Shown here piece by piece: positions 2,981 through 58,477 of a stretch of 64,000 bases of DNA; positions within the stretch are counted from its first letter, which is position 1, and the number at the start of each line of letters is the position of its first letter. This DNA comes from an uncultured Planctomycetales bacterium. Its GTDB lineage: Bacteria; Omnitrophota; Gorgyraeia; Zapsychrales; Fredricksoniimonadaceae. The stretch spans positions 6,398-70,397 of the forward strand of contig CAZFNI010000007.1 in the NCBI GenBank assembly GCA_964520655.1, in the 5' to 3' direction. Below the pieces are notes generated by a model. It was given only the letters and a program-made list of their open reading frames with translations, made no database searches and was not told the origin of the DNA. The translations under genes were made by a program, and so were the position numbers.

Positions 2981-3180
2981 GGATTTTCAGTTATTAGATC
3001 CCATCAATTATTTTTGATAACCATGTTGTTCTGGGTAGAACGAATGTATGTCTCTGCTGTTCTGGTTAAAAAGGCGTGATCAATTTTTAAAGTTTATAAA
3101 AGAAAGCGTTTGCCTAAAAAGTGGATTTGAGCCTTGATTTTAGACTAGGAAGGTCTAAACTTTAAGTGCTAGGAGAAAAA

Positions 3181-4887: not shown

Positions 4888-4944
4888 TATCTATTGAATC
4901 CATTTTAGCATTGATATCGCTTTAAATATGTGCAGAATAAAAGC

Positions 4945-6756
4945 ATGTCCGTGCGCAGAAAAGATGTCCTCATTGACGGCTTTTTCCTGTCGATCTTCCT
5001 TCTAATCTTCGTATCCTTCACCTGGGGCAAATGGATCCATCCGATCGTTGATTTCGGCCGAGAGGTTTATATCCCCTGGGCGATCGATCAGGGGGCCGTT
5101 CTCTACAAAGACCTGGCATTTCTTTTCGGTGCCTTGCCTCCTTACTGGAATGCTCTGCTATTTAAGATCTTTGGCGCGTCTTTGCAGACGATCCATGTTG
5201 TGGATGTGTTGGTAGTTTTTCTTTGCGCCGCATTGATCTATCGTTTTTTCTACTGCACCATGAACCGCTTGACAGCCTTCATGGTCACCCTCTCTTTTCT
5301 TATCCTGTTTGTCATGGATTTTTATTATTATGAATCCAATATGGCGTTTTTATCGCCATTCACGCACAGTTATTTTTACGCGTTCCTTTTTGTATTAGCG
5401 GCGGTCAATATCTGGCAATGTTTTCTCATGCGTCCAAGCAGGGCCTGGATATTTTTTTTAGGGATTTGCGTCGGCGGGGTTGTTGTATCACGGCTGGAGA
5501 TCGCGGCAGCATTCTTCGTGGCATTGTTGATCGGGTTTGCCTTTTATCTCCAGCGGTTAAAACCAGGATCACGGCAAACGCTGTATTATATGGGGTGTTT
5601 TATCGGGGGATTATTGACCCCGATCGCTTTGTTCTGGGCGTATTTCTTAATGTATTTACCGCCCTTACCCGCGTTTCTTTCCATCATTGGGTATAATCCT
5701 CAATGGCGTGAGGTAGGGGATCTGTATTTTTATCAATTCTTGGGAGGGTGGAACAACTGGGAGTTAAATGTGCTCTGGATGATCCGCAATTTGCTGGTTT
5801 ATGCGGCGCTGTATGCTTCATTTCATCTGATGCTGATCGCTCGTTTAAGCTTCAGTAAGAAAGAATGGCTGAAAGGTGTTTTCTCCTTCGCGATCTTTTG
5901 TATGGTCTACGGTGGGGTCGCGTTCTATATCAGTGATATATATGCCCGGGGTGTGTTTCGAGGCGCGATCCCGGTAGTGGCGGCGTTGATCGGGATCAGC
6001 CTGTTCAATATTTGCCAGAACAAAGAATGTGCCTGCCGCGACAGGCATTTGTCAATTGTGGTTTTGGCTGTCTTCGCGTTCTTGCTGATGTTCAAGGTCC
6101 CATTACAGTTGACCTTGCAGGACTATGCGCTGATCTACGGGATGTTTGGGGTGTTGATGTTCGTTGCCGGATGTGTGTATTATCTGCCGGAAAGATATCA
6201 ACAGTATCCAGGCGGGAGGAATTGGGTTGCGTTATTAGTTTGCGCGCTGCTGGTGCTGGTCATGGTGCGCGTCGGGATCGTTTCATGGGGAGGGTTATCC
6301 AGCAAGAAAACACTGGTTGGGAGAGGGGAAAATGTGCTATGGACGTTTGATAGTCCCGCGCCTTTTGGTTCCGGCGGCAGCGTGAAAAGTTTTCTGGACT
6401 GGTCCCGGGAACACTTTGCCCCTGAAGATACGTTTGTTGTTTTGCCGGAAGGAATAATGCTCAACTTTTTGACGGGGCATCGGATCACCGGCCGGCATGT
6501 CACATATATGCCGGCGGAAGTAACGACTTTTGGTGAAGCCAGCATGCTTCAAGAACTAAAAATGTCCCCGCCGGATTATGTGGTGGTTGTCGTCAAGCAG
6601 ACAAATGCCTATGGAGGACTGGACCTGGGCGTGAATTATTTAAATGATGTGTATAGATGGGTAAAGGATAACTATACCGTAGTATGGAGGTCGGGGAGCA
6701 AGAAGAAAGATAGTTTCCTGATGTCAGTGTATCAGAAAAAAGAGCGGAAGAGGTAG
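4945..6756 (+). CDS. Family A1: polytopic membrane protein, ArnT/PMT (GT-C)-like N-terminal loop, with a C-terminal soluble domain
   Basis: The ORF is open from GTG 4930. ATG 4945 (MSVRRKDVLIDG..) matches the paralog N-termini. Motif W.HP.VDFGREVYIPWAIDQGAVLYKDLAFLFGALPPYWNALLFKIFG is followed by many hydrophobic spans. C-terminal domain: FVVLPEGIMLNFLTGHRITGRHVTYMPAEV..FGE..ML..L...PPDYVVVV...N.YG....G.NY......W....Y..VW. Confidence 0.6.
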   Translation: MSVRRKDVLIDGFFLSIFLLIFVSFTWGKWIHPIVDFGREVYIPWAIDQGAVLYKDLAFLFGALPPYWNALLFKIFGASLQTIHVVDVLVVFLCAALIYRFFYCTMNRLTAFMVTLSFLILFVMDFYYYESNMAFLSPFTHSYFYAFLFVLAAVNIWQCFLMRPSRAWIFFLGICVGGVVVSRLEIAAAFFVALLIGFAFYLQRLKPGSRQTLYYMGCFIGGLLTPIALFWAYFLMYLPPLPAFLSIIGYNPQWREVGDLYFYQFLGGWNNWELNVLWMIRNLLVYAALYASFHLMLIARLSFSKKEWLKGVFSFAIFCMVYGGVAFYISDIYARGVFRGAIPVVAALIGISLFNICQNKECACRDRHLSIVVLAVFAFLLMFKVPLQLTLQDYALIYGMFGVLMFVAGCVYYLPERYQQYPGGRNWVALLVCALLVLVMVRVGIVSWGGLSSKKTLVGRGENVLWTFDSPAPFGSGGSVKSFLDWSREHFAPEDTFVVLPEGIMLNFLTGHRITGRHVTYMPAEVTTFGEASMLQELKMSPPDYVVVVVKQTNAYGGLDLGVNYLNDVYRWVKDNYTVVWRSGSKKKDSFLMSVYQKKERKR

Positions 6757-6760
6757 GCCC

Positions 6761-8566
6761 ATGTCGCCGCGAAAAACAGGATTGTTGTGGGATGCCGCGG
6801 TCCTTTTGACCGTAGCCGTTGTGTTTATCATATTGACTGGCGGAAAGTGGACCCATCCGGTCAATGATTTTGGCCGGGAAGTCTACATCCCCTGGGCGAT
6901 CGATCAGGGGGCGGTCCTTTATAAAGACCTGGCTTATCTTTTTGGTGCTTTGCCGCCCTGCTTAAATGCGCTGCTGTTTAAATTCTTTGGAGCTTCCTTA
7001 CAGACGATCCAACAATTTGATCTTTTGGTCGTCGCCCTGATGACCGCGTTGATCTACCGATTTTTCTATCTTGTCTGGTGCCGGTTATCCGCATTAGCTG
7101 CTGCGGCATCATTTTTAGTTCTTTTTGCTTTTGATTATCTGCCGTTTGGTTCAAACATGTATTATTTAAGCCCCTATTCTCACAGTTATTTCTATGCTGG
7201 ATTGTTTACCCTCGCGATCTTTAACACACTGGAGAAGTATTTTAAGGATCAGCGTAAGCGCTGGCTTTTATTGACAGGGGTTCTTTTAGGTGCGGCATTG
7301 TTGTCCCGTCTGGAGTTATTTATCATCATATTCATCGCATCGATGTTCGGGCTGGTGATCGATGCCTGTGCCAAGAACATGGCGCTGCGGGAAAGGTTCC
7401 GGAACTGGATGCTGGTGTTGGCGGGGGTTACGATCGCGGTCCTGCCGTTTTTGATATATTTCTCGATGCATATGCCCGTGTCAAAAGCGTTAATGTCGAT
7501 CGTCGGGTTTAATCCACAGTGGCAGCAGGTGTCTGGCATCTATTTGTATAGAAATCTGGCCGGGCTTATCCATGTTCCGATGAACCTGCAGATGTTGGGC
7601 ATCGTTCTGGGAGCATACGCGGCGTTGTATTTAGGATTGAACGCGCTTGGTCAGGCGTTTTTGCTGCGGCGCGCGGGGAGGGATCATTTTCAGGTATTTG
7701 TTCTGGGGGCGTATTTCTTTACGGTTTATGGGGCTGTGCTGTATGCGGTCAATCACGGCTGGGCGCATGAGATCTTTCGTGGAGCGGCCGTTTGTGTGAT
7801 CTTAGCCGGTATTCTGGCGTATAGAAAAATGCGTCAAGCGCAGGATGCGGATAGCCGCACCAGGGCGCTGCTGATGCTGATGTTCTGTCTTTTTGCCGGG
7901 CTGATGCTGTTTAAAGTGCCGCTGTCGATGAAATTATTCAATTACGCGCTTTTTTACGGCATGCCCGCGGGGCTTGTCACAGTTATCGTCTGGGTCAAGG
8001 TGGTCCCGCAGATCATGCAGGAACGCTATAAGTCGGGCGCTGTCAGTCAGCTGTTTGTCTTATTCTTGCTTGTCAGCGTCGGAATCCAGGTGTTTGGCGC
8101 GTCCATCCATGGGCTTGGGGCGAGACAAAAGAAAGTCGGTCTGGGTCCCAATGCGCTGTGGGCGTTGGACAGGACTTCACCGTGGGGCGCGGGTGATGAT
8201 GTGGATCTATTCCTGAAATGGGCCAAAGAAAATCTTAAGGCCGGCGAGCGCTTCGTGGTCCTGCCGGAAGGCATCATGCTGAACTTTTTAACGGGGCATA
8301 AGATCTCCGGCAGGCATTTAACGTTTATGCCGGCGGAGATGGTCACCTTTGGCGAGAAAAGCATGTTGGGGGCATTGACGGAAGATCCGCCGGAATACAT
8401 GGTGCTTGTCCATAAAAGCAATGCTGAATACGGAGGGATCGTCCTGGGGCAGAATTATGCGCTTGAGATAGTCGGTTGGTTGAAAGAACATTATCAGCGG
8501 GTATGGATCTCCCGGGAAAAAAGGCCGGGGAATTTTTCAATTGAGGTCTATCAACGAAGATCATGA
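6761..8566 (+). CDS. Family A2: polytopic membrane protein, ArnT/PMT (GT-C)-like
   Basis: 601 aa, with GGAAGAGG upstream. NDFGREVYIPWAIDQGAVLYKDLAYLFGALPPCLNALLFKFFGASLQTI is nearly identical to A1 at both protein and DNA level. The C-terminal FVVLPEGIMLNFLTGHKISGRHLTFMPAEMVTFGE...PPEYMVLV is conserved. Confidence 0.6.
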   Translation: MSPRKTGLLWDAAVLLTVAVVFIILTGGKWTHPVNDFGREVYIPWAIDQGAVLYKDLAYLFGALPPCLNALLFKFFGASLQTIQQFDLLVVALMTALIYRFFYLVWCRLSALAAAASFLVLFAFDYLPFGSNMYYLSPYSHSYFYAGLFTLAIFNTLEKYFKDQRKRWLLLTGVLLGAALLSRLELFIIIFIASMFGLVIDACAKNMALRERFRNWMLVLAGVTIAVLPFLIYFSMHMPVSKALMSIVGFNPQWQQVSGIYLYRNLAGLIHVPMNLQMLGIVLGAYAALYLGLNALGQAFLLRRAGRDHFQVFVLGAYFFTVYGAVLYAVNHGWAHEIFRGAAVCVILAGILAYRKMRQAQDADSRTRALLMLMFCLFAGLMLFKVPLSMKLFNYALFYGMPAGLVTVIVWVKVVPQIMQERYKSGAVSQLFVLFLLVSVGIQVFGASIHGLGARQKKVGLGPNALWALDRTSPWGAGDDVDLFLKWAKENLKAGERFVVLPEGIMLNFLTGHKISGRHLTFMPAEMVTFGEKSMLGALTEDPPEYMVLVHKSNAEYGGIVLGQNYALEIVGWLKEHYQRVWISREKRPGNFSIEVYQRRS

Positions 8567-8575
8567 TAAAACGTA

Positions 8576-10387
8576 ATGGATAAGAATAAACGGGACATAG
8601 CCCTGGATGCGGCATTTATTCTGATGGTCTTGGGTGGATTTGTGGCCGTGACCTGGGGCCGGTGGGCTCATCCGATCATTGATTACGGCCGCGAGGTGTA
8701 TGTCCCCTGGCGTATCACCGCGGGGGAGGTCTTATATAAGGACCTGGCTTATCTGTTCGGTGCTTTTCCGCCCTATTGGAATGCGCTGCTTTTTAAAGTG
8801 TTCGGCCCATCGATCGCCACCTTGACGGGATTCAACACCCTCCTGGCCCTGGCGGATGTGTTCTTGGTGTACCGGTTCCTGCTTCTGTCCGCCGATCGCT
8901 TGACCGCGCTTTTGGGCGCGGCTGGTTTTTTATTGCTGGCGGTCTGCAATCTGCACATGGCCTACAATATGTATTATTTGGCCCCCTATTCGCATAATGC
9001 CGCGTATGCGGTCTTTTTTGTTTTGTGCGCGTTAAATGTGCTGCCGTCGTTGTTGCGGATATTGGAGCACAGGGCATTCTTTTTATTGGGGCTTTTTCTC
9101 GCTGGAGCGTTGTTATCGAGGCTGGAAATATTCCTGGCCGCGGCGCTGGCGATCTTTACGGCTTTAGGGTTGTATTTTTGGAAATATTCAGTACAAAAAA
9201 ATAAAGCGTTCGCTTATATCGGCACGGCGGTGGCAGGCATTTTCTTTCCGGTATTTGTGTTCTGGGTGTATTTTGTGGCACACTTGCCGCCCTTAGAAGC
9301 ACTTTTTTCTATTATAGGCTATAACCCTCAGTGGCGAGAGGTGGCCCAAACAACACTGTATGCCAAGCAATATGCGGCGTGGCGGGAGAATGTCACGCTG
9401 ATGGCCATGGCGTTGGGAGGCAGCATGTTATTGATCGTCGGCATTGAGATATGCTGCCGGGGCATGATGTTATGGCAAAAGAGCAAAGAGCGGTTGAAAG
9501 CACTGTTGATGTGCGGTCTTTCTGTGTTGTTATATACAGGGGTTCTATATGTTTGCACGGGTGAGAATGTGTATGATGTGTTTCGGGGGCAGATCATCCT
9601 TCAGATCGTATTGGTCGTTTTTTGTTATAAAAGATTCCAGTCTTCCACTGGATTGGAAGATAATATCAGAACATTGTGCCTTTGGGTGTTGTGTGCCTGG
9701 GGGCTTTTCATGCTGGGGAAGATCCCCTTAAAATGTGTTGTCCGGGGCAGCGGCTTGATCTACGGGATCCCGGCGATGCTGACAGCGGTCGTTCTTTTCG
9801 CGTATCTTCTGCCGCAGCGGGCGCAAAGGCTTTACGGCCAGGGGCGTATTGCGGCAATAGCGGCAGCGCTGCTGCTGACATTTTTGTTCTGTCGGGTGTT
9901 GGCGTCTTCGTTGAATAACTTGTCGCTGCGTTTGAAGGCTGTCGGTCAGGGAGCCAATGCATTGCGGACCATTGATTACCCATTGCCATTCGGGCTTGGG
10001 ACCGACATTGAGAAATTCCTTTCTTGGTCGCGGGATCATTTGGGGAACAATGACACCTATGTTGTCCTGCCCGAGGGGGTCATGCTCAATTTCCTGACCC
10101 GTCACCGGATAACGGGCCAGCACATCACCTTTATGCCGGCGGAACTGGCAACGTTCACGGAAGAACGTATGCTGGCAGGGTTGAAGGATGTTCCGCCTGA
10201 TTATGTGGTCATTGTGAATAAGGATAATACGGCTTACGGGGATATGGTTTTTGGGAAGAATTACGCGCCGCGTCTTTATCAGTGGGTCATGACGCGGTAT
10301 TCGCCGGTCTGGGATTCCAGGGTTATCCCCAACCGGTATGCAGGCATAACGGTCTTCAAACGTCAGGAAATACAGGGGCATGAATAG
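8576..10387 (+). CDS. Family A3: polytopic membrane protein, ArnT/PMT (GT-C)-like
   Basis: 603 aa. Motifs: WAHPIIDYGREVYVPWRITAGEVLYKDLAYLFGAFPPYWNALLFKVFG and the C-terminal YVVLPEGVMLNFLTRHRITGQHITFMPAELATF...PPDYVVIV. Confidence 0.6.
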   Translation: MDKNKRDIALDAAFILMVLGGFVAVTWGRWAHPIIDYGREVYVPWRITAGEVLYKDLAYLFGAFPPYWNALLFKVFGPSIATLTGFNTLLALADVFLVYRFLLLSADRLTALLGAAGFLLLAVCNLHMAYNMYYLAPYSHNAAYAVFFVLCALNVLPSLLRILEHRAFFLLGLFLAGALLSRLEIFLAAALAIFTALGLYFWKYSVQKNKAFAYIGTAVAGIFFPVFVFWVYFVAHLPPLEALFSIIGYNPQWREVAQTTLYAKQYAAWRENVTLMAMALGGSMLLIVGIEICCRGMMLWQKSKERLKALLMCGLSVLLYTGVLYVCTGENVYDVFRGQIILQIVLVVFCYKRFQSSTGLEDNIRTLCLWVLCAWGLFMLGKIPLKCVVRGSGLIYGIPAMLTAVVLFAYLLPQRAQRLYGQGRIAAIAAALLLTFLFCRVLASSLNNLSLRLKAVGQGANALRTIDYPLPFGLGTDIEKFLSWSRDHLGNNDTYVVLPEGVMLNFLTRHRITGQHITFMPAELATFTEERMLAGLKDVPPDYVVIVNKDNTAYGDMVFGKNYAPRLYQWVMTRYSPVWDSRVIPNRYAGITVFKRQEIQGHE

Positions 10388-12743
10388 GAATTTAGTCACC
10401 GTCGGTGTCATTTCGTTTTCGGCCATCTTGTTCCAGATATGCGTCACGCGCATTCTGGCGGTGACCCTGTGGTATCATTTTGCTTTTCTGGTGATCTCGC
10501 TTTCGATGCTGGGGATGACGGCAGCCGCGATCGCCTGTTTTGTTTTTTGGCCGCGTGTCATAGAAACACAAAGCCGGCGGTATTTTATTATTTTTGCAGC
10601 CCTGTTCGCCTTGCTTGCGCCATTATCCGTTGCTGTTCATTTAAATATCAATTTTCAGGAAGTGGCGTTCAACACGGCCGGATTTTATGCGATCGCGATG
10701 CTCCAGCTGGTGTTTTTGGCGGCGGCGTTCTTCGCCGCAGGGATGGCGTTAAATATCATTTTGTTCAAAGAACAGGAACGGATCGGATTTGTCTATTTCT
10801 GTGATCTGATCGGCGCCGCGGCGGCAAGCCTTCTGGTCATGGCGCTGTTATATTGGGTCAGCCCTATCGCTGTTGTGTTTCTCATTTCATTTTTGTCCTT
10901 ATGGGCAGCCTATGTGCAGGCATCGCATCAGGGCTTACGCCTGGCGCTGCTTTTATCAGCGGGAGTGATGCTGGTATTATTCATCAACAATGACGCGTGG
11001 CATATCTTTAAGATCAGGGCCGTGAAAAGTTATGGGGAGAAAGCGTTCCAGGTGGAGGACAAACCTCTTTTGTTCGAGAAATGGTCGCCGTTCGCGCGTA
11101 CGACGGTGTACAGCCCGACCCGCCATGACAGCGGGACATTATCCATTGAGAATAATTCCGGCGCACCGGCGGCAATGTTCAAATATGACCCGATGCTTCC
11201 GCCAACCCAGCTGAGGACCAGGCTTTACGGTCTTCAGGAAATGGCTTTTGTCCTCAAGAAGAGCGATGAAGCCTTGATCATCGGCTCAGGCGGAGGGAGG
11301 AATTTGCTGGCAGCGTTGCTCTCGGGTCAGGGCCATATCACGGCGGTTGAGGTCAATCCGGTGACTGCGGAGATCGTTACAAAGGATTTTTCGGATTATA
11401 TCGGCCGCATCTTTGAGGATTCCCGCGTTACTTTTCATGTGCAGGAGGGGAGGAATTTCATTGCCCGTACCCAACAGTTGTACGATGTGATCAATATCTC
11501 CATGGTTGAGAGCTGGGGGAATCAGGCCGCGGCCAGCAATTCGTATATTTTTACCGAGAACACCTTGTACACCAGAGAAGCGGTCTGGGATTATGTGCGT
11601 CATTTAAACCCGCAGGGGATACTGAGCATCACCCGGTATGATGATTTTGATGAAGGCTTGCGTTTAGTGAACACGATGATCGACACGCTGCAGGAGAGAG
11701 GGGAAAAAGACCTTAAGGACCAGTTCGTCGTTGTGTTGGGCTACAAGTATCGGGGATCGGTGGGGCTAGCCAATGTCATGTACAAACGCGGCGGATTCAC
11801 CAGGGAAGATGTGGCCAGGATCAGGGATTTTACATCCCGTAACGGTTTTAAGATCATTTACGCGCCGTTCTTGCCGGAGGCAGCAATGAGCGCGCTTCCC
11901 CGGTCGGAATTTTACCGCAAGCTTATCCTCGGGAAAGACAGGAGGGATGATCTGGTGGCGCGGTATCCCCGGATCATCAGCCCATCCACGGACGACAAAC
12001 CATTTTTTTTCTACATGGACCGATTTAAGGATTCATTTGTGTTCAATGCCAATGAACATGCGGCCCGAAGACGCGCTATCCCGATATTGTATGGATTGTG
12101 TGCGGGGGTAGCGGTGCTTAGCCTGATCATGGTCTTTCTGCCGTTGTTAGTTTACCGCCGTACACGTTTAAGCACGCTGTTGCAATGCCGGGTGAATTTG
12201 CTTTATTTTGCAGCGCTGGGAACGGGGTTTATGTTCATTGAGTTATCCCTGATACAGCGACTGACTGTTTTTCTGGGGCATCCCATTTACGCCTTGATCG
12301 TGGTGTTGACCGCCTTGCTGTTAAGCAGCGCTATGGGGAGCTTCTTCTCAGGAAGGATCAAGCCTCTAATGAAAGAGAAGGTGCTTAAGGTTGTGCTGCT
12401 GGCGATCGCCCTCTGTGGCGTTCTTGTGGGGGGAATTATGTTCGATCACCTGGCGCGCTGGATGTATTTACAGCAGCCGCTGCGTGTCATCGTTGCTGTC
12501 GCGACCATCGTTCCTTTGGGGGCTATGCTGGGGATGTGTTTCCCGCTGGGTGTTCATTTGCTGCAGGAGAAGGACAGGCAGCTGATCGTATGGGCGTGGG
12601 GTATCAACGGGATATTTTCTGTCTTAGGATCGGTGCTGGCCATGGTGCTGGCACTGCATATGGGATTTAAAGCCGTGTTCTTGATCGGAGCGGCATGTTA
12701 TTGCGGGGCATGGTTGGCGGTCAAACGCATGGGGAATCAATGA
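10380..12743 (+). CDS. Spermidine-synthase-like (class I SAM/dcSAM-binding fold) domain flanked by two multi-span membrane domains (787 aa)
   Basis: The central domain LIIGSGGGRNLLAALLSGQGHITAVEVNPVTAEIV...RVTFHVQEGRNFIARTQQLYDVINISMVESW resembles the SpeE-type aminopropyltransferase core. Hydrophobic segments lie on both sides (about 200 aa at the N-terminus and about 220 aa at the C-terminus). Overlaps the upstream gene by 8 nt. Confidence 0.65.
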   Translation: MNRNLVTVGVISFSAILFQICVTRILAVTLWYHFAFLVISLSMLGMTAAAIACFVFWPRVIETQSRRYFIIFAALFALLAPLSVAVHLNINFQEVAFNTAGFYAIAMLQLVFLAAAFFAAGMALNIILFKEQERIGFVYFCDLIGAAAASLLVMALLYWVSPIAVVFLISFLSLWAAYVQASHQGLRLALLLSAGVMLVLFINNDAWHIFKIRAVKSYGEKAFQVEDKPLLFEKWSPFARTTVYSPTRHDSGTLSIENNSGAPAAMFKYDPMLPPTQLRTRLYGLQEMAFVLKKSDEALIIGSGGGRNLLAALLSGQGHITAVEVNPVTAEIVTKDFSDYIGRIFEDSRVTFHVQEGRNFIARTQQLYDVINISMVESWGNQAAASNSYIFTENTLYTREAVWDYVRHLNPQGILSITRYDDFDEGLRLVNTMIDTLQERGEKDLKDQFVVVLGYKYRGSVGLANVMYKRGGFTREDVARIRDFTSRNGFKIIYAPFLPEAAMSALPRSEFYRKLILGKDRRDDLVARYPRIISPSTDDKPFFFYMDRFKDSFVFNANEHAARRRAIPILYGLCAGVAVLSLIMVFLPLLVYRRTRLSTLLQCRVNLLYFAALGTGFMFIELSLIQRLTVFLGHPIYALIVVLTALLLSSAMGSFFSGRIKPLMKEKVLKVVLLAIALCGVLVGGIMFDHLARWMYLQQPLRVIVAVATIVPLGAMLGMCFPLGVHLLQEKDRQLIVWAWGINGIFSVLGSVLAMVLALHMGFKAVFLIGAACYCGAWLAVKRMGNQ

Positions 12744-54848: not shown

Positions 54849-55578
54849 TTTGACGTTCTATTTAGACGGGGTTTATTTAAACAGCAATGAAAAGCTCCTG
54901 TCAGTTTTTACCCCGGGTCAGCAAAGCTATCGGGGGGTGTTTGAGACCATGCGCGTTGTCAACGGCCGTGTGGAATATCTGGATGAGCATCTCTTTAGAC
55001 TGTTAAAGGGATTGAAAACCTTGAAGATCAGCTGCCCGTCATCTTTAGCAGCCATTAAACGCATTGTCAGTACTGTGGTTAGCAAAAATCCATCTATTGC
55101 TTTGGGGCGTTTGCGGCTGATGGTTTTTGGTGAACAAGGACAAACACATACGGCCTGCATGGTCTTGCCGTATAAGCCTTTTAATGGCCGTCAGTATCGA
55201 GAGGGCTTAAATGCGTGTGTGATCAAAACAGCGCGGCCGGCGACCAGCCGTTATGCGTCGGTCAAATCTCTGGATTACGCGGTCTTTTCCAACGCCCTAA
55301 AGCGGGCCGTCTCGCAAGGGTATGACGAGGCAGTGCTGCTTAACGCGAAAGGATATGTTTGTGAAGCCAGCCGGGGGAATATTTTTATTCTCTATCAAGA
55401 TCAATGGCTGACCCCGCCGCTGTCGAGCGGTTGTTTGAACGGGATCATGCGGACGCTGGTGATGGGCCAGATGGATGTCCGGGAAAAGAACATCACACCG
55501 AAGATGCTGCGTTTGGCGGATGTTGTCGTGATGACTAATTCTTTAGCCGGTTTGATCAAGCTGGTTGTGGCCCCTTAA
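54841..55578 (+). CDS. pabC: Class IV aminotransferase-fold protein, probable aminodeoxychorismate lyase
   Basis: ATG 54841 overlaps the pabB stop by 8 nt. Motifs: GVFETMRV, HL.RL..G, and CEASRGNIFILY...TPPLSSGCLNGIMR. Confidence 0.65.
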   Translation: MRNLTFYLDGVYLNSNEKLLSVFTPGQQSYRGVFETMRVVNGRVEYLDEHLFRLLKGLKTLKISCPSSLAAIKRIVSTVVSKNPSIALGRLRLMVFGEQGQTHTACMVLPYKPFNGRQYREGLNACVIKTARPATSRYASVKSLDYAVFSNALKRAVSQGYDEAVLLNAKGYVCEASRGNIFILYQDQWLTPPLSSGCLNGIMRTLVMGQMDVREKNITPKMLRLADVVVMTNSLAGLIKLVVAP

Positions 55579-55596
55579 AGGCTCTTGAAGGGATGG

Positions 55597-55625
55597 TTGC
55601 TTTATTAACTCGTGAGTGATATAAT
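55597..55625 (+). promoter_or_regulatory. Strong sigma70-type promoter: TTGCTT, 17-nt spacer, extended -10 TGaTATAAT
   Basis: The -35 element is at 55597-55602, TG at 55617-55618, and TATAAT at 55620-55625. AAGGAGA (55644-55650) follows, 5 nt before ATG 55656. Confidence 0.5.
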
Positions 55626-55655
55626 GCTTATAATTCGACATATAAGGAGAGTGTT

Positions 55656-55919
55656 ATGAAAACAATTTTGATCAGAACGGCCGTGGGTGCGTTGATCTTA
55701 GTGCAAGTCGTATCCATCATGCTGCTCATCGACCAGAAAAAAACAGCAAAGGCACAGTGTATTCCTATCAGTTCAACCATTGCCTGTAATGCGTCTTTTA
55801 ATTTCAATGCGAGCGACGGTTCCTCATGCGGGCCAGTTGCTGTGGCCTGTTCCGGCGGTTTGATGACCGGGATAACCTATACCGGCGGTTCATGCGGCAG
55901 CCCAAGCGGCGGTACATAG
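55656..55919 (+). CDS. Small secreted or membrane-anchored Cys-rich peptide (87 aa)
   Basis: MKTILIRTAVGALILVQVVSIMLLIDQKKTAKAQ is followed by CIPISSTIACNASFNFNASDGSSCGPVAVACSGGLMTGITYTGGSCGSPSGGT, which has 6 Cys, is rich in Gly/Ser/Thr, and contains no Glu, Lys or Arg. The gene has its own promoter, a strong RBS and its own terminator. Confidence 0.6.
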   Translation: MKTILIRTAVGALILVQVVSIMLLIDQKKTAKAQCIPISSTIACNASFNFNASDGSSCGPVAVACSGGLMTGITYTGGSCGSPSGGT

Positions 55920-55948
55920 ACATTTGTTCTAAGGAAGTGTTGTTTAAA

Positions 55949-55991
55949 GCCGGTCGTTTTAGTAAGATCAAAATGACCGGCTTTTTCTTTT
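55949..55991 (+). terminator. Rho-independent terminator
   Basis: The stem GCCGGTCGTTTT / AAAATGACCGGC (12 bp including one G-U pair) has a 9-nt loop and is followed by TTTTTCTTTTT. Confidence 0.8.
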
Positions 55992-56004
55992 TGATCCTAT
56001 CGAG

Positions 56005-57462
56005 ATGAAAGTTATGGGTTTTCGCAAGAAATTAGATGATCTATTCGGGATAGACATACGGGCTTTGGCCATTATGCGCATCGCCTTCGCTTTATTATTG
56101 ATCGTGGATCGATTCCGTGATCTACCGTTCGTTAAAGAGTATTATTCGGATGCCGGTCTTTTGCCTCTAGCCTATGGAAAGATGCTGGTGCCACGCGAGT
56201 CGTTTAGTTTATTCTTCTTTAACGGTTCTTTGGAATTCCAGTATTTCTTACTATTCGTGTTGCTTGTGCTAACGGTGGGACTGTTGGTGGGTTATTATAC
56301 GCGCTTTTGCACGGTGATGATGTGGGTCTTGCTGGTCTCGATGCATAACCGCAATTGGCTTATCCTGGGCGCGGAGGATAAACTGTTGGATGTGCTGTTT
56401 CTCTGGTTCATATTCCTGCCGTGGGGGGCATGTTATTCGATCGACAGGCTGCGCCATCCGGAAAGAAGGCCTCCGGCAAGGGTCTTGTCAATGGGGTCCG
56501 CGGCGTTCTTGCTCCAGGTCAGTTTTTTTTACATTTTTGCCGGTTTTCTTAAATCATTCCCGGAATGGACCAGGGATCATAATGCCGGGTATTTGCTCTT
56601 AAGCCTTCATGAATTTGTGAAGCCTTTAGGCACAAGCCTGCTTTCTTATCCCAAATTCTTGGAATGGATGACGGTATTGAGCTTGAACATGGAGCGTTTC
56701 GGCCCGTTCTTCTTTTTTATCCCTTTTCAAACGGTCCCTTTTCGATTTGTCATGGTCATTATCTTTGTGATCTTTCATTTGGTCCTGATGGCCACGTTAG
56801 AGACAGGGATCTTTCAATGGGTGTGTTTGATCATGTTCATCGGGTTCTTACCCACAGCATTTTTTGACAGGATCCTGGGTAAATATGAACCGCACCTCCC
56901 GCATGAGAAGGGAAATGCCCGAGAGAAAAGATCAGATGGAGGGGCGGGATTGCCGTGGTATCTGAACCTGATCGTTGGATTTCTGATCCTTTATGGGTTT
57001 TGTTGGAATTTGCATGATCTCTTAAAGCCTGGCAGCCAGATGCCCAAAAGCGTGAAGTGGATCGGATGCGCGCTTAATCTGCGGCAGCACTGGGGGATGT
57101 TCGCTCCCGGCCCTATGCGTGATGATGGCTGGTTCGTGATCCCAGGGAGATTACGTAATGGGACAGAGGTTGATCTGATGAAGTCAGACGGGGCTCCCGT
57201 CGTTTGGGAAGAGCCTCCTTCTATCATGGATCTAAATCGATCGGATCATTTAACGCTTTATTATATGAATATCCACCGTCCACATTATTCGCATTTTGTC
57301 CACCCCTGGGGGAAATATTTGTGCCGGGAATGGAATGCGACACATTCAGAAGAAGAACAAGTTCTTACATTCAAGATCATATTCATGGAGCGGATGATAC
57401 AAAAAGATCTTCAGCCGCCTAAAATGAGAAAAATCGTTCTGTTCAATCAAAGATGTTTTTGA
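56005..57462 (+). CDS. HTTM-domain polytopic membrane protein (vitamin-K-dependent gamma-carboxylase / SdpB-like family)
   Basis: The N-terminus LFGIDIRALAIMRIAFALLLIVDRF.....YYSDAGLLP....LLVGYYTRF..VMMWVLLVSMHNRN.....ED.LL.VLFLWFIFLP.GA.YSIDR is typical of HTTM domains. The C-terminal half contains WGMFAPGPMRDDGWFVIPG.L.NGTEVDL. Confidence 0.65.
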   Translation: MKVMGFRKKLDDLFGIDIRALAIMRIAFALLLIVDRFRDLPFVKEYYSDAGLLPLAYGKMLVPRESFSLFFFNGSLEFQYFLLFVLLVLTVGLLVGYYTRFCTVMMWVLLVSMHNRNWLILGAEDKLLDVLFLWFIFLPWGACYSIDRLRHPERRPPARVLSMGSAAFLLQVSFFYIFAGFLKSFPEWTRDHNAGYLLLSLHEFVKPLGTSLLSYPKFLEWMTVLSLNMERFGPFFFFIPFQTVPFRFVMVIIFVIFHLVLMATLETGIFQWVCLIMFIGFLPTAFFDRILGKYEPHLPHEKGNAREKRSDGGAGLPWYLNLIVGFLILYGFCWNLHDLLKPGSQMPKSVKWIGCALNLRQHWGMFAPGPMRDDGWFVIPGRLRNGTEVDLMKSDGAPVVWEEPPSIMDLNRSDHLTLYYMNIHRPHYSHFVHPWGKYLCREWNATHSEEEQVLTFKIIFMERMIQKDLQPPKMRKIVLFNQRCF

Positions 57463-57473
57463 CCAATCCGTCA

Positions 57474-57501
57474 TTGCTCTTCGAGAATAAACAGGTATAA
57501 T
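57474..57501 (+). promoter_or_regulatory. Candidate promoter TTGCTC, 16-nt spacer, TATAAT, with the -10 box ending 7 nt before ATG 57509 (a leaderless transcript is possible)
   Basis: Read directly from the sequence. No Shine-Dalgarno sequence lies between the -10 box and the ATG. Confidence 0.35.
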
Positions 57502-57508
57502 ATTATCC

Positions 57509-58477
57509 ATGATTCGGTTATTGGCCGCATTCTTCATATTTTTTCCCGTCGTGGGAGTTCATGCCCAGGAATTGACATCGGCCATGCGTGCTAATGGCCC
57601 GTCGGCAGCAGCTTTGGAGCAATGGAAGAGCGGGGTCGATGCTATCCGGGGGCAAATGGATGTGTTGATACGCCAGAATGACCAGTTGACGCAAGTGTAC
57701 GATCAGGAAAGATCGCAGGAACAGCAATTGCTGCGGGAGATCGAAGAACAGCGTCAGAAAGTGGAGGCGTTAAAGGAATATTTACGGAAACGCGAGGGAA
57801 AAACAGACCAGGACCTGCGCGTGGACGCGTTAAACGGAGAATTACGGATCAAGCGCATGCAGATGGATAAGATTTTGCTCGAGTATAAGACCAGCCATGC
57901 CAAAGCACAGGATGTTCTAGACAGGGTTGAATCCAAACGGATGAAGATCTCCGCGTATGATCTTAAGCCAACAGAGCCAGCCGTTGAAAAAAAGGCCGTA
58001 GAGCCGCGCAAAGACCCGGCCCTGGAGGCTTTGCGCGCGGAATACCAGCGCCAGAAAGCGTCGGAGGCAAGATTAGAAGCCGGTATGGATCCGGCGCGGG
58101 AGAGCAGCGACGCGCTGGAGATCAAGCAGTTAGAGGTCAGGGTTGCGGCGCTGACGGAACAAAAGGCGCAGCTGATGAAAAAACCTTTGGCGGAAGATCA
58201 CAGCGCAGACAAATTGAATTTGATGCAGACTAAGAAGGATGAGTTGGAAAAGAAGATCCGCGCATTTGAGAGCAGGATCGAATCATTGAAGTCAACATCG
58301 GTGGTTTCTGGTTCCTGGGCGGCTGCGCGTAAAGAAATGGTGCGGGCCGTTGTGCAGGGGGATGCGCGTAATAAGAAATTAGCGAATGAGATCAAAGAAC
58401 TAAAAGAGAATATCGCGCTGCTGCGCAGCCAGATAGGCGTTTTGGAAAAACGCGTGCTTTTCAGTAAGAAACGATAA
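57509..58477 (+). CDS. Secreted coiled-coil protein (322 aa)
   Basis: Signal peptide MIRLLAAFFIFFPVVGVHA|QE. The rest is rich in Q/E/K/R/L with a heptad-like pattern (e.g. QEQQLLREIEEQRQKVEALKEYLRKRE and LKENIALLRSQIGVLEKR). Confidence 0.6.
   Translation: MIRLLAAFFIFFPVVGVHAQELTSAMRANGPSAAALEQWKSGVDAIRGQMDVLIRQNDQLTQVYDQERSQEQQLLREIEEQRQKVEALKEYLRKREGKTDQDLRVDALNGELRIKRMQMDKILLEYKTSHAKAQDVLDRVESKRMKISAYDLKPTEPAVEKKAVEPRKDPALEALRAEYQRQKASEARLEAGMDPARESSDALEIKQLEVRVAALTEQKAQLMKKPLAEDHSADKLNLMQTKKDELEKKIRAFESRIESLKSTSVVSGSWAAARKEMVRAVVQGDARNKKLANEIKELKENIALLRSQIGVLEKRVLFSKKR

What the first reader, a model, noticed from the sequence alone, without database searches (positions are those of the whole stretch)
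55597..57462. A strongly signalled small Cys-rich secreted peptide followed by an HTTM/SdpB-like membrane protein: a possible peptide maturation or toxin module
The 87-aa ORF has the best expression signals in the window. These are TTGCTT-17-TGaTATAAT, an AAGGAGA RBS, and a clean Rho-independent terminator at 55949-55991. Its product is an N-terminal signal or anchor followed by a 53-aa region rich in Cys, Gly, Ser and Thr, with 6 Cys and no Glu, Lys or Arg.

Fourteen nt after the terminator starts a 485-aa HTTM-domain protein. In B. subtilis the HTTM protein SdpB, together with SdpA, is required to mature the secreted disulfide-containing toxin SdpC. A precursor gene with a leaky terminator before its processing gene is also a common bacteriocin/RiPP layout. 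This pair could therefore be an undescribed secreted-peptide system.
Basis: partly seen in the sequence, partly recalled or inferred. Interest (0 to 1): 0.6.

Follow-up and report, generated by a model that had tools for sequence, protein, structure and literature searches.

The report
Cys-rich mini-protein beside inserted HTTM gene
A real, conserved gene for a small exported 5-cysteine protein sits next to a vitamin-K-carboxylase/LMF1-like membrane protein gene that was inserted there only in this lineage, so it is not a fixed peptide-plus-maturase pair, although relatives of this membrane protein are unusually often encoded beside cysteine-rich exported proteins.

Summary
The sequence features are real. 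There is an 87-aa ORF (55656-55919) with promoter-like and RBS signals, a strong hairpin terminator, and then a 485-aa Pfam HTTM protein. The peptide has 5 Cys, not 6.

The small ORF is a genuine gene. Four to five lineages keep it. Synonymous sites are saturated, yet the N-terminal 33 residues (ending in the invariant DQKKTAKA) hardly change.

In three other lineages the peptide gene is followed directly by the conserved promoter of a secreted coiled-coil protein gene. They have no HTTM gene. In the window, that promoter lies after the HTTM stop codon. The terminator plus HTTM gene (about 55920-57470) is therefore a lineage-specific insert.

The HTTM protein gives no NCBIfam hit, SdpB or otherwise. 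Its predicted fold matches only GGCX, with the catalytic Lys218 position conserved as K183, and some relatives hit Pfam LMF1. No SdpA, immunity, protease or exporter gene is nearby.

However, in 6 of 7 loci of the closest HTTM subfamily a Cys-rich exported protein (87-886 aa) lies within two genes. The post hoc Fisher test gives p about 0.0007-0.05.

Verdict: this is not a conserved peptide/maturase module and not Sdp-like. A looser role as a maturation factor for Cys-rich exoproteins is plausible but unproven.

The parts
55597..55634 (+). Promoter-like region of the small gene. It holds TTGCTT (55597-55602), a 17-nt spacer, an extended -10 TGaTATAAT (-10 at 55620-55625), and a second TATAAT at 55629-55634.
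   Evidence: Read directly. The scan reports TTAACT-18-TATAAT at 55605-55634, matching 10 of 12 positions. It is nearly identical in L001. Function is not tested.
55644..55650 (+). Shine-Dalgarno-like AAGGAGA, 5 nt before the ATG.
   Evidence: Read directly. Relatives have AAAGGA or GGGAGG at the same place.
55656..55754 (+). Codons 1-33 of the small protein. The n-region is MKTILIR, followed by an 18-residue hydrophobic stretch and then DQKKTAKA. This is a predicted Sec signal peptide with an AxA site (A31-K32-A33), or alternatively an uncleaved anchor.
   Evidence: It is the best conserved part of the family, and DQKKTAKA is invariant in all five sequences. pN is 0.12-0.28 against a saturated pS of 0.77-0.87. 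The AF2 model shows a helix at residues 3-33, at low confidence. Cleavage is inferred from the -3/-1 rule and was not predicted by a tool.
55755..55919 (+). The 54-aa Cys/Gly/Ser/Thr-rich part of the small protein plus the stop codon. It has 5 Cys, of which C35, C44 and C65 are invariant in the family. It has no Glu, Lys or Arg.
   Evidence: It is variable between lineages. The AF2 model suggests three short strands, but mean pLDDT for the whole 87-aa model is only 59.
55946..55992 (+). Intrinsic-terminator-like hairpin (55946-55984) with a T-run (55982-55992).
   Evidence: It folds at -21.7 kcal/mol, z = -5.3, and no shuffle folds as well. It is identical in L001. It is absent from the relatives that lack the HTTM gene.
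55920..57470 (+). Lineage-specific insert comprising the 3' spacer, the terminator and the HTTM gene.
   Evidence: In L006 and L008 the peptide stop codon is followed directly by the conserved block TCATTGCCTCTTCGA.AAT.AA.AGGTATAAT. In the window and L001 that block follows the HTTM stop codon. In L091 the peptide gene is also followed about 45 bp later by a coiled-coil-like secreted ORF.
56005..57462 (+). GGCX/LMF1-like HTTM membrane protein of 485 aa (482 aa if the start is 56014). The HTTM transmembrane domain covers about residues 16-282. A flexible linker covers 298-313. A C-terminal helix/beta domain follows.
   Evidence: Pfam HTTM gives E 5e-9. The AF2 model has mean pLDDT 87. Foldseek against the PDB finds only GGCX, at E 1.4e-8 and TMq 0.5. 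hhalign against human GGCX gives probability 92% and E 6.5e-7. It aligns window Q171, Y176, A179, G180, K183 and W188 with GGCX Q206, Y211, A214, G215, K218 and W223.
57471..57508 (+). Conserved promoter block of the next gene. It holds TTGCTC (57474-57479), a 16-nt spacer and TATAAT (57496-57501), with the ATG only 7 nt further on. A leaderless transcript is possible.
   Evidence: It is nearly invariant in the window, L001, L006, L008 and L092, although the flanking coding DNA is saturated at synonymous sites.
57509..58477 (+). Secreted coiled-coil protein of 322 aa. It is the ancestral downstream neighbour of the small gene.
   Evidence: It is 53-56% identical in L006 and L008. Only four clusters turn up in 5.8e9 proteins. 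It has no meaningful Pfam or NCBIfam hit.

Best explanation
The region holds two genes of separate origin.

**(1) The small gene, 55656-55919.** It is a genuine gene with its own promoter. It encodes an 87-aa pre-protein of a very small orphan family.
- Shown: the gene is conserved, and the constraint falls mainly on residues 1-33.
- Inferred: the protein is exported by Sec and cut by signal peptidase I after A31-K32-A33. That would release a roughly 54-aa uncharged Cys/Gly/Ser/Thr-rich mini-protein held by disulfides, with C35-C44 a likely pair.

**(2) The HTTM gene, 56005/56014-57462.** It encodes a membrane protein of the HTTM superfamily with the overall fold of vitamin-K-dependent gamma-carboxylase. 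It keeps the GGCX catalytic-lysine motif.
- Shown: together with the terminator, it was inserted in this lineage between the small gene's stop codon and the conserved promoter of the coiled-coil gene. The pair is therefore not an ancestral or conserved peptide/maturase operon, and it is not an Sdp-type system.
- Shown, with a small sample: genes of this HTTM subfamily sit next to Cys-rich exported proteins far more often than expected.
- Inferred: the HTTM protein is most likely a membrane maturation factor for Cys-rich exported proteins, in the manner of eukaryotic LMF1. The mini-protein is a possible client. Expression would depend on read-through of the terminator.

The chemical step (redox/disulfide help or a quinol-driven modification) is unknown.
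For: **The small gene is real**
- Searches show saturated synonymous sites (pS 0.77-0.87) against pN 0.12-0.28 in codons 1-33.
- Against L001 the ORF shows 7 synonymous and 3 non-synonymous changes.

**The family is tiny**
- A word-indexed search of 5.8e9 protein clusters found three.
- An exhaustive profile search of 1.84e9 representatives added one.

**The HTTM gene is an insert**
- Relatives carry the peptide gene without an HTTM gene.
- The junctions align as expected for an insert.
- The same promoter block is present in L092.

**Identity of the HTTM protein**
- Searches support a GGCX-like fold with the Lys218 equivalent K183 invariant in the family.
- Relatives pass either Pfam HTTM or Pfam LMF1.

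**Not Sdp-like**
- There is no NCBIfam hit at E 10.
- The neighbours are a PabC-like aminotransferase and a coiled-coil protein.

**Link to Cys-rich exported proteins**
- Searches show 6 of 7 loci with such a protein within two genes.
- The counts are 7 of 25 near against 3 of 94 far, Fisher p 6.5e-4.
- Leaving out the window's own pair gives p 0.001.
- The arrangement is operon-like in L002, L093, L095 and L096.

**LMF1 precedent**
- LMF1 depletion gives a more oxidising ER and faulty disulfides in lipoprotein lipase.
- Its clients include disulfide-rich proteins (PMC7197872, PMC11526315).

**DCC1-like partners**
- DCC1-like thiol-disulfide oxidoreductase domains occur fused to or beside family members.
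Against: - The enrichment test was devised after seeing the data. It rests on 7 short loci, of which L093 and L096 share homologous neighbours. Its background comes mostly from one genome.
- The enrichment disappears in the wider family: 6 of 292 nearby genes against 4 of 591 further away in Bacteroidota and other genomes.
- The peptide family does without an adjacent HTTM gene in three lineages.
- A strong terminator separates the two genes.
- The HTTM protein has no CxxC motif. Its only widely conserved Cys residues are C440 and C484 in the C-terminal domain.
- No DCC-like motif was found in the 64-kb window.
- Signal-peptide cleavage, disulfides, expression and read-through are all untested.
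Confidence: 0.5

Rival explanations
1. This is chance adjacency. The HTTM gene is an accessory gene that landed in a permissive intergenic spot and has nothing to do with the mini-protein. The apparent link to Cys-rich exported proteins arises because both kinds of gene are variable envelope or accessory genes that collect in the same islands.
For: - The insert is lineage-specific.
- HTTM neighbours differ in every locus and share no conserved partner.
- A terminator lies between the two genes.
- The peptide is conserved without an HTTM gene.
- The wider family shows no association with Cys-rich exported proteins.
Against: - 6 of 7 loci of the close subfamily have a Cys-rich exported neighbour, against a background of about 3%.
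- In four of these loci the genes lie on the same strand, with short gaps or overlaps.
- The window's small gene lies in a conserved syntenic block, not in an island.
Confidence: 0.3
2. The pair is a dedicated secreted-peptide system (a bacteriocin, RiPP or Sdp-like toxin). The HTTM protein processes this particular peptide, and the leaky terminator sets the ratio of precursor to enzyme.
For: - The genes are adjacent on the same strand, with a strong promoter and terminator layout.
- The leader is much better conserved than the Cys-rich core, as in RiPP and bacteriocin precursors.
- HTTM proteins take part in SDP toxin production (PMC6818787) and occur in linaridin clusters (PMC9927463).
Against: - The pair exists only in the window species and its 97%-identical relative.
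- Three peptide-bearing lineages have no HTTM gene at the locus.
- There is no SdpB-family hit.
- There is no SdpA, immunity, protease or ABC-exporter gene within several genes on either side.
- The 'leader' looks like an ordinary Sec signal with an AxA site, not a cytoplasmic recognition leader.
- The peptide core is not hydrophobic, unlike SDP.
Confidence: 0.1
3. The HTTM protein is a true quinol- and O2-dependent carboxylase of the GGCX or MloH type, and it carboxylates acidic residues of the neighbouring peptide.
For: - The fold is GGCX-like and the motif Q-x4-Y-x2-AG-x2-K-x4-W is conserved, including the Lys218 equivalent.
- Bacterial HTTM carboxylases exist. MloH is cited in bioRxiv 10.64898/2026.08.19.745780.
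Against: - The part after A33 has no Glu and only one Asp. That Asp is not conserved in P0066.
- The other Cys-rich neighbours are also poor in Glu.
- The sequence match to GGCX covers only the HTTM domain.
- I did not check whether this organism makes menaquinone or lives with oxygen.
Confidence: 0.05
4. The small ORF product is not secreted. It stays in the membrane as a single-pass (signal-anchor) mini-protein. Its conserved helix and DQKKTAKA segment are the functional part, for example as a subunit of a membrane complex.
For: - Residues 1-33 are far more conserved than the rest.
- The hydrophobic stretch is 18 residues, which is long for a signal peptide.
- AF2 draws one continuous helix over residues 3-33.
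Against: - Conservation stops exactly at the AxA site.
- The extracytoplasmic part keeps three invariant Cys.
- The AF2 model has low confidence.
Confidence: 0.2

Closest known systems
Bacillus subtilis sdpABC (SdpB is an HTTM protein needed, with SdpA, to turn secreted SdpC into the 42-aa SDP toxin; PMC6818787)
   Same: An HTTM-superfamily membrane protein is encoded beside a Sec-exported, Cys-containing product.
   Different: - No NCBIfam hit, SdpB or otherwise, was found.
- No SdpA and no sdpRI genes are present.
- The gene order is reversed, and a terminator lies between the genes.
- The precursor is 87 aa with a polar core, not 203 aa with a hydrophobic toxin domain.
- The protein carries a GGCX-like C-terminal domain, which SdpB (about 320 aa, from memory) lacks.
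- The pair is not conserved.
Lipase maturation factor 1 (LMF1, Pfam PF06762)
   Same: - It is a multi-pass HTTM-clan membrane protein.
- Relatives of the window protein (P0018, P0020, P0029) pass the LMF1 model over the same region that HTTM covers.
- LMF1 is needed for correct disulfides and maturation of disulfide-rich secretory clients (PMC7197872, PMC11526315). This parallels the Cys-rich neighbours seen here.
   Different: - The window protein itself does not hit PF06762.
- The setting is a bacterial inner membrane, not the ER.
- No client relationship is shown.
- LMF1's own mechanism is unknown.
[quoted passage not shown]
   Same: - It is the only solved fold that matches (Foldseek E 1.4e-8, TMq about 0.5 over about 480 columns).
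- The HTTM domain is homologous (hhalign probability 92%).
- The Lys218 motif is conserved.
   Different: - Identity is 16%.
- The window protein is 485 aa against 758 aa for GGCX.
- The adjacent peptide has no Glu and no recognisable propeptide.
- Activity is untested.
Bacterial HTTM-DCC1-like proteins and their partners (DUF5819 complex, MloH; bioRxiv 10.64898/2026.08.19.745780)
   Same: - They carry the same HTTM domain.
- Family members are fused to DCC1-like domains or lie near DCC1-like genes in 21 genome loci.
   Different: - The window protein has the GGCX-type C-terminal domain instead of a DCC1-like domain.
- No DCC-like motif was found in the window.
Secreted peptide families with a conserved signal sequence and a variable Cys-rich mature part, such as cone-snail toxin precursors (my own knowledge, an analogy only)
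   Same: The pre-region is far better conserved than the Cys-framework mature region.
   Different: - There is no homology.
- Only five sequences are known.
- Between the two closest genomes the core is under purifying selection, not diversifying selection.

Membership tests
Pfam HTTM (PF05090) | The whole-protein score is above the gathering cut-off. | tested here: met
   The score is 36.5 bits against a cut-off of 27.7, E 5.2e-9. Residues 16-282 match model positions 4-255 of 259.
GGCX (vitamin-K-dependent carboxylase) | The overall fold: an HTTM transmembrane domain plus an extracytoplasmic C-terminal domain. | tested here: met
   The AF2 model has pLDDT 87. Foldseek against the PDB returns 16 GGCX chains as the top hits, the best at E 1.4e-8 with TMq 0.49-0.53. 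Nothing else scores below E 2.
GGCX (vitamin-K-dependent carboxylase) | The catalytic lysine (K218) lies in the conserved AG-x2-K-x4-W segment. | tested here: met
   hhalign aligns the window segment QVSFFYIFAGFLKSFPEW with the GGCX segment QIFIVYFIAGVKKLDADW. K183 is invariant in 19 family members.
GGCX (vitamin-K-dependent carboxylase) | The substrate has a propeptide and Glu residues to carboxylate. | tested here: not met
   The neighbouring peptide has no Glu after A33. The Cys-rich neighbours of homologues are also poor in Glu.
GGCX (vitamin-K-dependent carboxylase) | Quinol- and O2-dependent epoxidase/carboxylase activity. | not testable with these tools
   This needs biochemistry.
Sdp system (sdpABC-sdpRI) | An HTTM protein of the SdpB family. 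| tested here: not met
   No NCBIfam model matches, even at E 10. That the library holds an SdpB model rests on my memory of TIGR04033.
Sdp system (sdpABC-sdpRI) | SdpA partner and SdpI/SdpR immunity and regulator genes in the locus. | tested here: not met
   The neighbours are a chorismate-binding enzyme, a class IV aminotransferase, a coiled-coil protein, an AsnC-type ligand-binding domain protein and an aminotransferase.
Sdp system (sdpABC-sdpRI) | A precursor of about 200 aa with a signal peptide and a C-terminal hydrophobic toxin segment (PMC6818787). | tested here: not met
   The precursor is 87 aa. Its C-terminal part is rich in Gly, Ser and Thr and is not hydrophobic.
LMF1 (PF06762) | A match to the LMF1 model. 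| tested here: inconclusive
   The window protein has no hit at E 0.1. Relatives that are 33-34% identical pass the cut-off at 27-35 bits, over the region equivalent to the second half of the HTTM domain.
RiPP or bacteriocin precursor with a dedicated maturase | Precursor and modifying-enzyme genes co-occur across genomes. | tested here: not met
   The peptide occurs without an HTTM gene in L006/L007, L008-L010 and L091. HTTM genes occur without this peptide in 84 loci.
RiPP or bacteriocin precursor with a dedicated maturase | The leader is better conserved than the core. | tested here: met
   Residues 1-33 are nearly invariant while the core is 30-40% identical. The same pattern also fits a conserved signal peptide.
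RiPP or bacteriocin precursor with a dedicated maturase | A leader protease, exporter or immunity gene is nearby. | tested here: not met
   None lies among the genes within about 6 kb.
Linaridin-type HTTM protein (PMC9927463) | The HTTM protein sits in a cluster with an alpha/beta-hydrolase and other linaridin genes. | tested here: not met
   The protein contains only the HTTM domain, and the neighbours have no hydrolase.
Sec signal peptide (signal peptidase I type) | A positive n-region, a hydrophobic h-region and small residues at -3 and -1. | tested here: inconclusive
   By inspection: K2 and R7, hydrophobic residues 8-25, then A31-K32-A33 before Q34. No predictor was available, and the 18-residue h-region is long.
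Bacterial lipoprotein | A lipobox [LVI][ASTVI][GAS]C. | tested here: not met
   The sequence before C35 is K-A-Q. In P0067 it is E-S-Y.
Intrinsic (Rho-independent) terminator | A stable GC-containing hairpin immediately followed by a U-run. | tested here: met
   The stem is continuous for 15 bp (plus one further pair beyond a bulge). It folds at -21.7 kcal/mol with z = -5.3, followed by TTTTTCTTTTT. Its efficiency is untested.

The most novel reading that the evidence does not exclude
A bacterial branch of the GGCX/LMF1 (HTTM) superfamily serves as a membrane maturation factor for Cys/Gly/Ser/Thr-rich exported proteins. It may couple a quinone site (the conserved Lys218-type motif) to their oxidative folding or to a new modification. 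The window shows it newly recruited behind a highly expressed 54-aa client whose signal peptide is conserved like a toxin-family pre-region. If true, this would give a tractable bacterial model for the still unknown mechanism of LMF1.
Probability: 0.15. Interest if true: 0.65.

Novelty: new variant of a known kind. Interest (0 to 1): 0.4.

Why it matters
**If the subfamily-level link holds.** It would point to an ancestral job for the HTTM superfamily, namely helping Cys-rich secretory proteins to mature. That would connect SdpB, LMF1 and GGCX. It would also offer a two-gene bacterial system (mini-protein plus HTTM protein) in which the chemistry could be worked out by mass spectrometry.

**If the link does not hold.** The region is an ordinary case of a gene inserted next to a lineage-restricted small secreted protein. 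The lesson is then that adjacency in one genome is not a module.

Tried and rejected
**Searches that found nothing**
- Two scans of the JGI metagenome contigs, one with the coiled-coil alignment and one with the peptide alignment.
- Two viral-contig scans.
- Rfam on the whole window and, more permissively, on 55500-57600.
- NCBIfam for the HTTM protein and the peptide.
- PDB sequence searches with the HTTM protein or its profile. GGCX turned up only by fold search and by hhalign.
- Attempts to name the organism. The cluster look-up carried no names and a paper search for the assembly accessions found nothing.
- The exact look-up of P0070.
- A search of the window for a second HTTM gene or a DCC motif.

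- The afdb50 fold library was not available.
- The AF2 model of the peptide had pLDDT 59, too poor for a fold search.

**Ideas tested and dropped**
- Homology between the peptide core and the window's two large Cys-rich proteins. The tblastn hits at 900-4900 are compositional, with z about 1 against shuffles.
- Homology between the L092 406-aa MauE-like protein and the HTTM family. BLAST found nothing and hhalign gave probability 2.7%. Only a shared Y-F-x-A-x3-K-x4-W motif remains, so I keep it as a lead.
- A small (160 aa or less) Cys-rich secreted ORF next to HTTM homologues in L001-L090. Only L001 has one.
- A shared partner gene among the neighbours of the closest HTTM homologues. None was found apart from HTTM paralogues.
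- Base composition or codon usage as a sign of recent transfer. The HTTM gene is unremarkable, with GC3 0.55.


Full report
**What is in the sequence**

- The 87-aa ORF at 55656-55919 is present as described.
- The upstream signals are TTGCTT, a 17-nt spacer, TG-a-TATAAT, then AAGGAGA 5 nt before the ATG.
- A hairpin at 55946-55984 followed by TTTTTCTTTTT folds at -21.7 kcal/mol. None of 200 shuffles folds as well, z = -5.3.
- A 485-aa ORF at 56005-57462 begins 12-14 nt after the T-run. Its start may instead be 56014.
- Two corrections apply.
  - The product has five cysteines, not six.
  - The -35 hexamer is weak, matching 3 of 6 positions. Promoter-like sites are not enriched over shuffles in this stretch.

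**The small ORF is a gene**

- A 97%-identical genome (L001, GCA_041910255.1) keeps it, with 7 synonymous and 3 non-synonymous changes.
- A search of 5.8e9 protein clusters found three relatives.
- An exhaustive profile search of 1.84e9 representatives added one more, P0067.
- Between these lineages, synonymous sites in codons 1-33 are saturated (pS 0.77-0.87). Non-synonymous change there is only 0.12-0.28.
- The segment (L/I)DQKKTAKA is invariant although its codons differ.
- After A33 the sequences diverge strongly. They keep three invariant Cys and carry 3-5 Cys in total.
- Residues 1-33 have the shape of a Sec signal peptide: K2 and R7, 18 hydrophobic residues, then A-K-A. Conservation ends exactly at that AxA site.
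- Cleavage is my inference. An uncleaved anchor is the alternative.
- The AF2 model is too poor to use, with pLDDT 59.

**The pair is not conserved**

- The peptide gene occupies the same syntenic slot in L006/L007 and in L008-L010.
  - The order there is chorismate-binding enzyme, class IV aminotransferase, peptide, 324-329-aa secreted coiled-coil protein, AsnC-type domain protein, aminotransferase.
  - No HTTM gene is present.
- In the most distant relative (L091), the peptide gene is again followed about 45 bp later by a coiled-coil-like secreted ORF.
- Junction alignments settle the matter.
  - The block TCATTGCCTCTTCGA.AAT.AA.AGGTATAAT-N7-ATG directly follows the peptide stop codon in L006 and L008.
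  - In the window and L001 the same block follows the HTTM stop codon.
  - That block reads as a TTGCCT-17-TATAAT promoter with the start codon 7 nt after the -10 box. It is also present in L092.
- So about 55920-57470, the terminator plus the HTTM gene, is an insert in the window's lineage. One gain is more parsimonious than three losses with identical scars.
- The three genes have separate signals.
- The HTTM gene has no convincing promoter of its own. TTGTTT-17-TAAGAT inside the hairpin matches only 7 of 12 positions. Its expression probably depends on read-through, which is untested.

**What the HTTM protein is**

- It passes Pfam HTTM.
- No NCBIfam model, SdpB or otherwise, matches at E 10.
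- A confident AF2 model (pLDDT 87) matches only vitamin-K-dependent gamma-carboxylase among solved structures. The best hit has E 1.4e-8 and TMq about 0.5 over about 480 columns.
- I recalled the human GGCX sequence and checked it residue by residue against the PDB chains.
- hhalign of the family profile against that sequence gives probability 92% and E 6.5e-7.
  - It places window Q171, Y176, A179, G180, K183 and W188 on GGCX Q206, Y211, A214, G215, K218 and W223.
  - Q171, Y176, K183 and W188 are invariant in 19 family members.
- Some relatives pass Pfam LMF1 instead of HTTM over the same region.
- Others are fused to a DCC1-like thiol-disulfide oxidoreductase domain.
- In 21 genome loci, mostly Hymenobacter, a DCC1-like gene lies within three genes.
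- The protein has no CxxC motif. C440 and C484 in the C-terminal domain are its most widely conserved Cys residues.

**The comparison that kept the idea alive**

- My first screen found no small Cys-rich secreted ORF beside HTTM homologues in 84 other loci.
- I then looked at neighbours of any size in the closest subfamily.
  - This subfamily is 39-50% identical to the window protein.
  - Its only named member comes from a Candidatus Omnitrophota MAG.
- The neighbours in each locus are as follows:

| Locus | Cys-rich exported neighbour(s) of the HTTM gene |
|---|---|
| L002 | Two pilin-like proteins (447 aa with 55 Cys; 886 aa with 78 Cys), then a methyltransferase, then the HTTM gene |
| L093 | 628 aa with 58 Cys directly upstream; 155 aa with 8 Cys directly downstream |
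| L095 | 404 aa with 56 Cys directly upstream |
| L096 | 704 aa with 44 Cys, two genes upstream |
| L094 | 574-aa TSP_1 protein with 76 Cys, beside an HTTM-DCC1 paralogue |
| L004 | None on the contig |

- Counting genes within two positions gives 7 of 25 Cys-rich exported proteins, against 3 of 94 elsewhere. Fisher p is 6.5e-4.
  - Without the window's own pair, p is 0.001.
  - Over most other thresholds p is 0.0007-0.05. Only the strictest setting is non-significant, at 0.15-0.19.
- These neighbours, like the mini-protein, are rich in Gly, Ser and Thr and poor in charged residues.
- In L092 a 406-aa MauE-like membrane protein sits beside a 419-aa protein with 32 Cys. It occupies the very slot upstream of the coiled-coil promoter and carries the motif Y-F-x-A-x3-K-x4-W.
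- Caveats apply.
  - The test was post hoc and the sample is small.
  - L093 and L096 are not independent.
  - The background comes mostly from one genome.
  - The wider family shows no such association.

**Interpretation**

- The specific claim of a conserved peptide-plus-maturase or Sdp-like toxin module is not supported.
- The most likely account is a conserved, independently transcribed gene for a small exported disulfide-containing protein. In one lineage a GGCX/LMF1-type membrane protein gene has been inserted behind it.
- This HTTM subfamily tends to sit with Cys-rich exported proteins. LMF1 is needed for correct disulfides in its secretory clients (PMC7197872, PMC11526315). A maturation role towards such proteins, with the mini-protein as a possible client, is therefore my preferred inference.
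- Pure coincidence remains a serious rival.
- Classical Glu carboxylation of the peptide is unlikely because it has no Glu.
- Known HTTM roles in peptide systems (SdpB in PMC6818787; linaridin clusters in PMC9927463) are analogies. The defining partner genes of those systems are absent.

**Dead ends**

- JGI metagenome scans and viral scans found nothing.
- Rfam gave no hit.
- I could not name the organism.
- The afdb50 library was unavailable.
- The similarity between the peptide core and the window's large Cys-rich proteins is only compositional.

Noticed in passing
window 533-12743 (+): Two large exported proteins with 11-13% Cys lie at 533-2980 (815 aa, 90 Cys) and 3166-4887 (573 aa, 74 Cys). 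Their first ~170 residues resemble the L092 419-aa TSP_1-like protein. They are followed by three paralogous multi-pass membrane proteins of about 600 aa (4930-10387, 37-43% identical, no Pfam hit). Next comes a 787-aa membrane protein with a spermine-synthase domain.
   Followed up: partly
window 57471-57508; also L006 ~6510-6559, L008 ~6010-6048, L092 2649-2687: A nearly invariant promoter-like block (TTGCCT, 16-17 nt, TATAAT) lies before the coiled-coil gene, with the start codon only 7 nt after the -10 box. It suggests a leaderless mRNA. It is conserved although the neighbouring coding DNA is saturated at synonymous sites.
   Followed up: partly
L092 57-2544: At the slot upstream of the coiled-coil promoter this relative has no mini-protein. 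Instead it has a 406-aa MauE-like membrane protein (Pfam E 6e-5, below the cut-off) carrying the HTTM-type motif YFxAxxxKxxxxW. That gene is convergent with a 419-aa exported protein with 32 Cys.
   Followed up: partly
L012-L090 (mostly Hymenobacter and Pontibacter), L094 6458-8170: The recurrent partner of the wider HTTM family is a DCC1-like (DUF393) thiol-disulfide oxidoreductase. It is a separate gene within three genes in 21 loci. In others it is fused C-terminally to an HTTM domain.
   Followed up: partly
L093 3080-4966 and 6562-7029; L096 561-2675; L095 963-2924; window 533-2980: Several exported proteins near HTTM genes share a motif just after the signal peptide. It reads (S/T)(S/T)YYPSP(S/T)GxY, and IYYADPSGHF in the window's 815-aa protein. 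One of them (L095, 653 aa) also hits the phage tail-fibre domains Phage_T4_gp36 and Peptidase_S74.
   Followed up: no
L096 1181-2122 (-) versus 561-2675 (+): The deposited gene call on the minus strand (a VPVG repeat) looks like the antisense of a 704-aa exported ORF on the plus strand, which has 44 Cys and a TN repeat.
   Followed up: no
L017, L018, L022 (Pontibacter), about 5450-5980 (-): ORFs of 160-171 aa with 13-17% Cys lie directly upstream of the HTTM gene in three Pontibacter species. I did not check whether they are real genes.
   Followed up: no
L059 2277-2591, L076 5042-5323, L081 7570-7857: In some Hymenobacter genomes a lipoprotein-like ORF with long (T/S)SG repeats lies just downstream of the HTTM gene.
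   Followed up: no
L095 4198-6690: One close HTTM homologue (P0009) is 830 aa. Its extra 330 C-terminal residues or so have no Pfam match. It is followed by two 68%-identical membrane proteins of about 555 aa and a GT2 glycosyltransferase.
   Followed up: no
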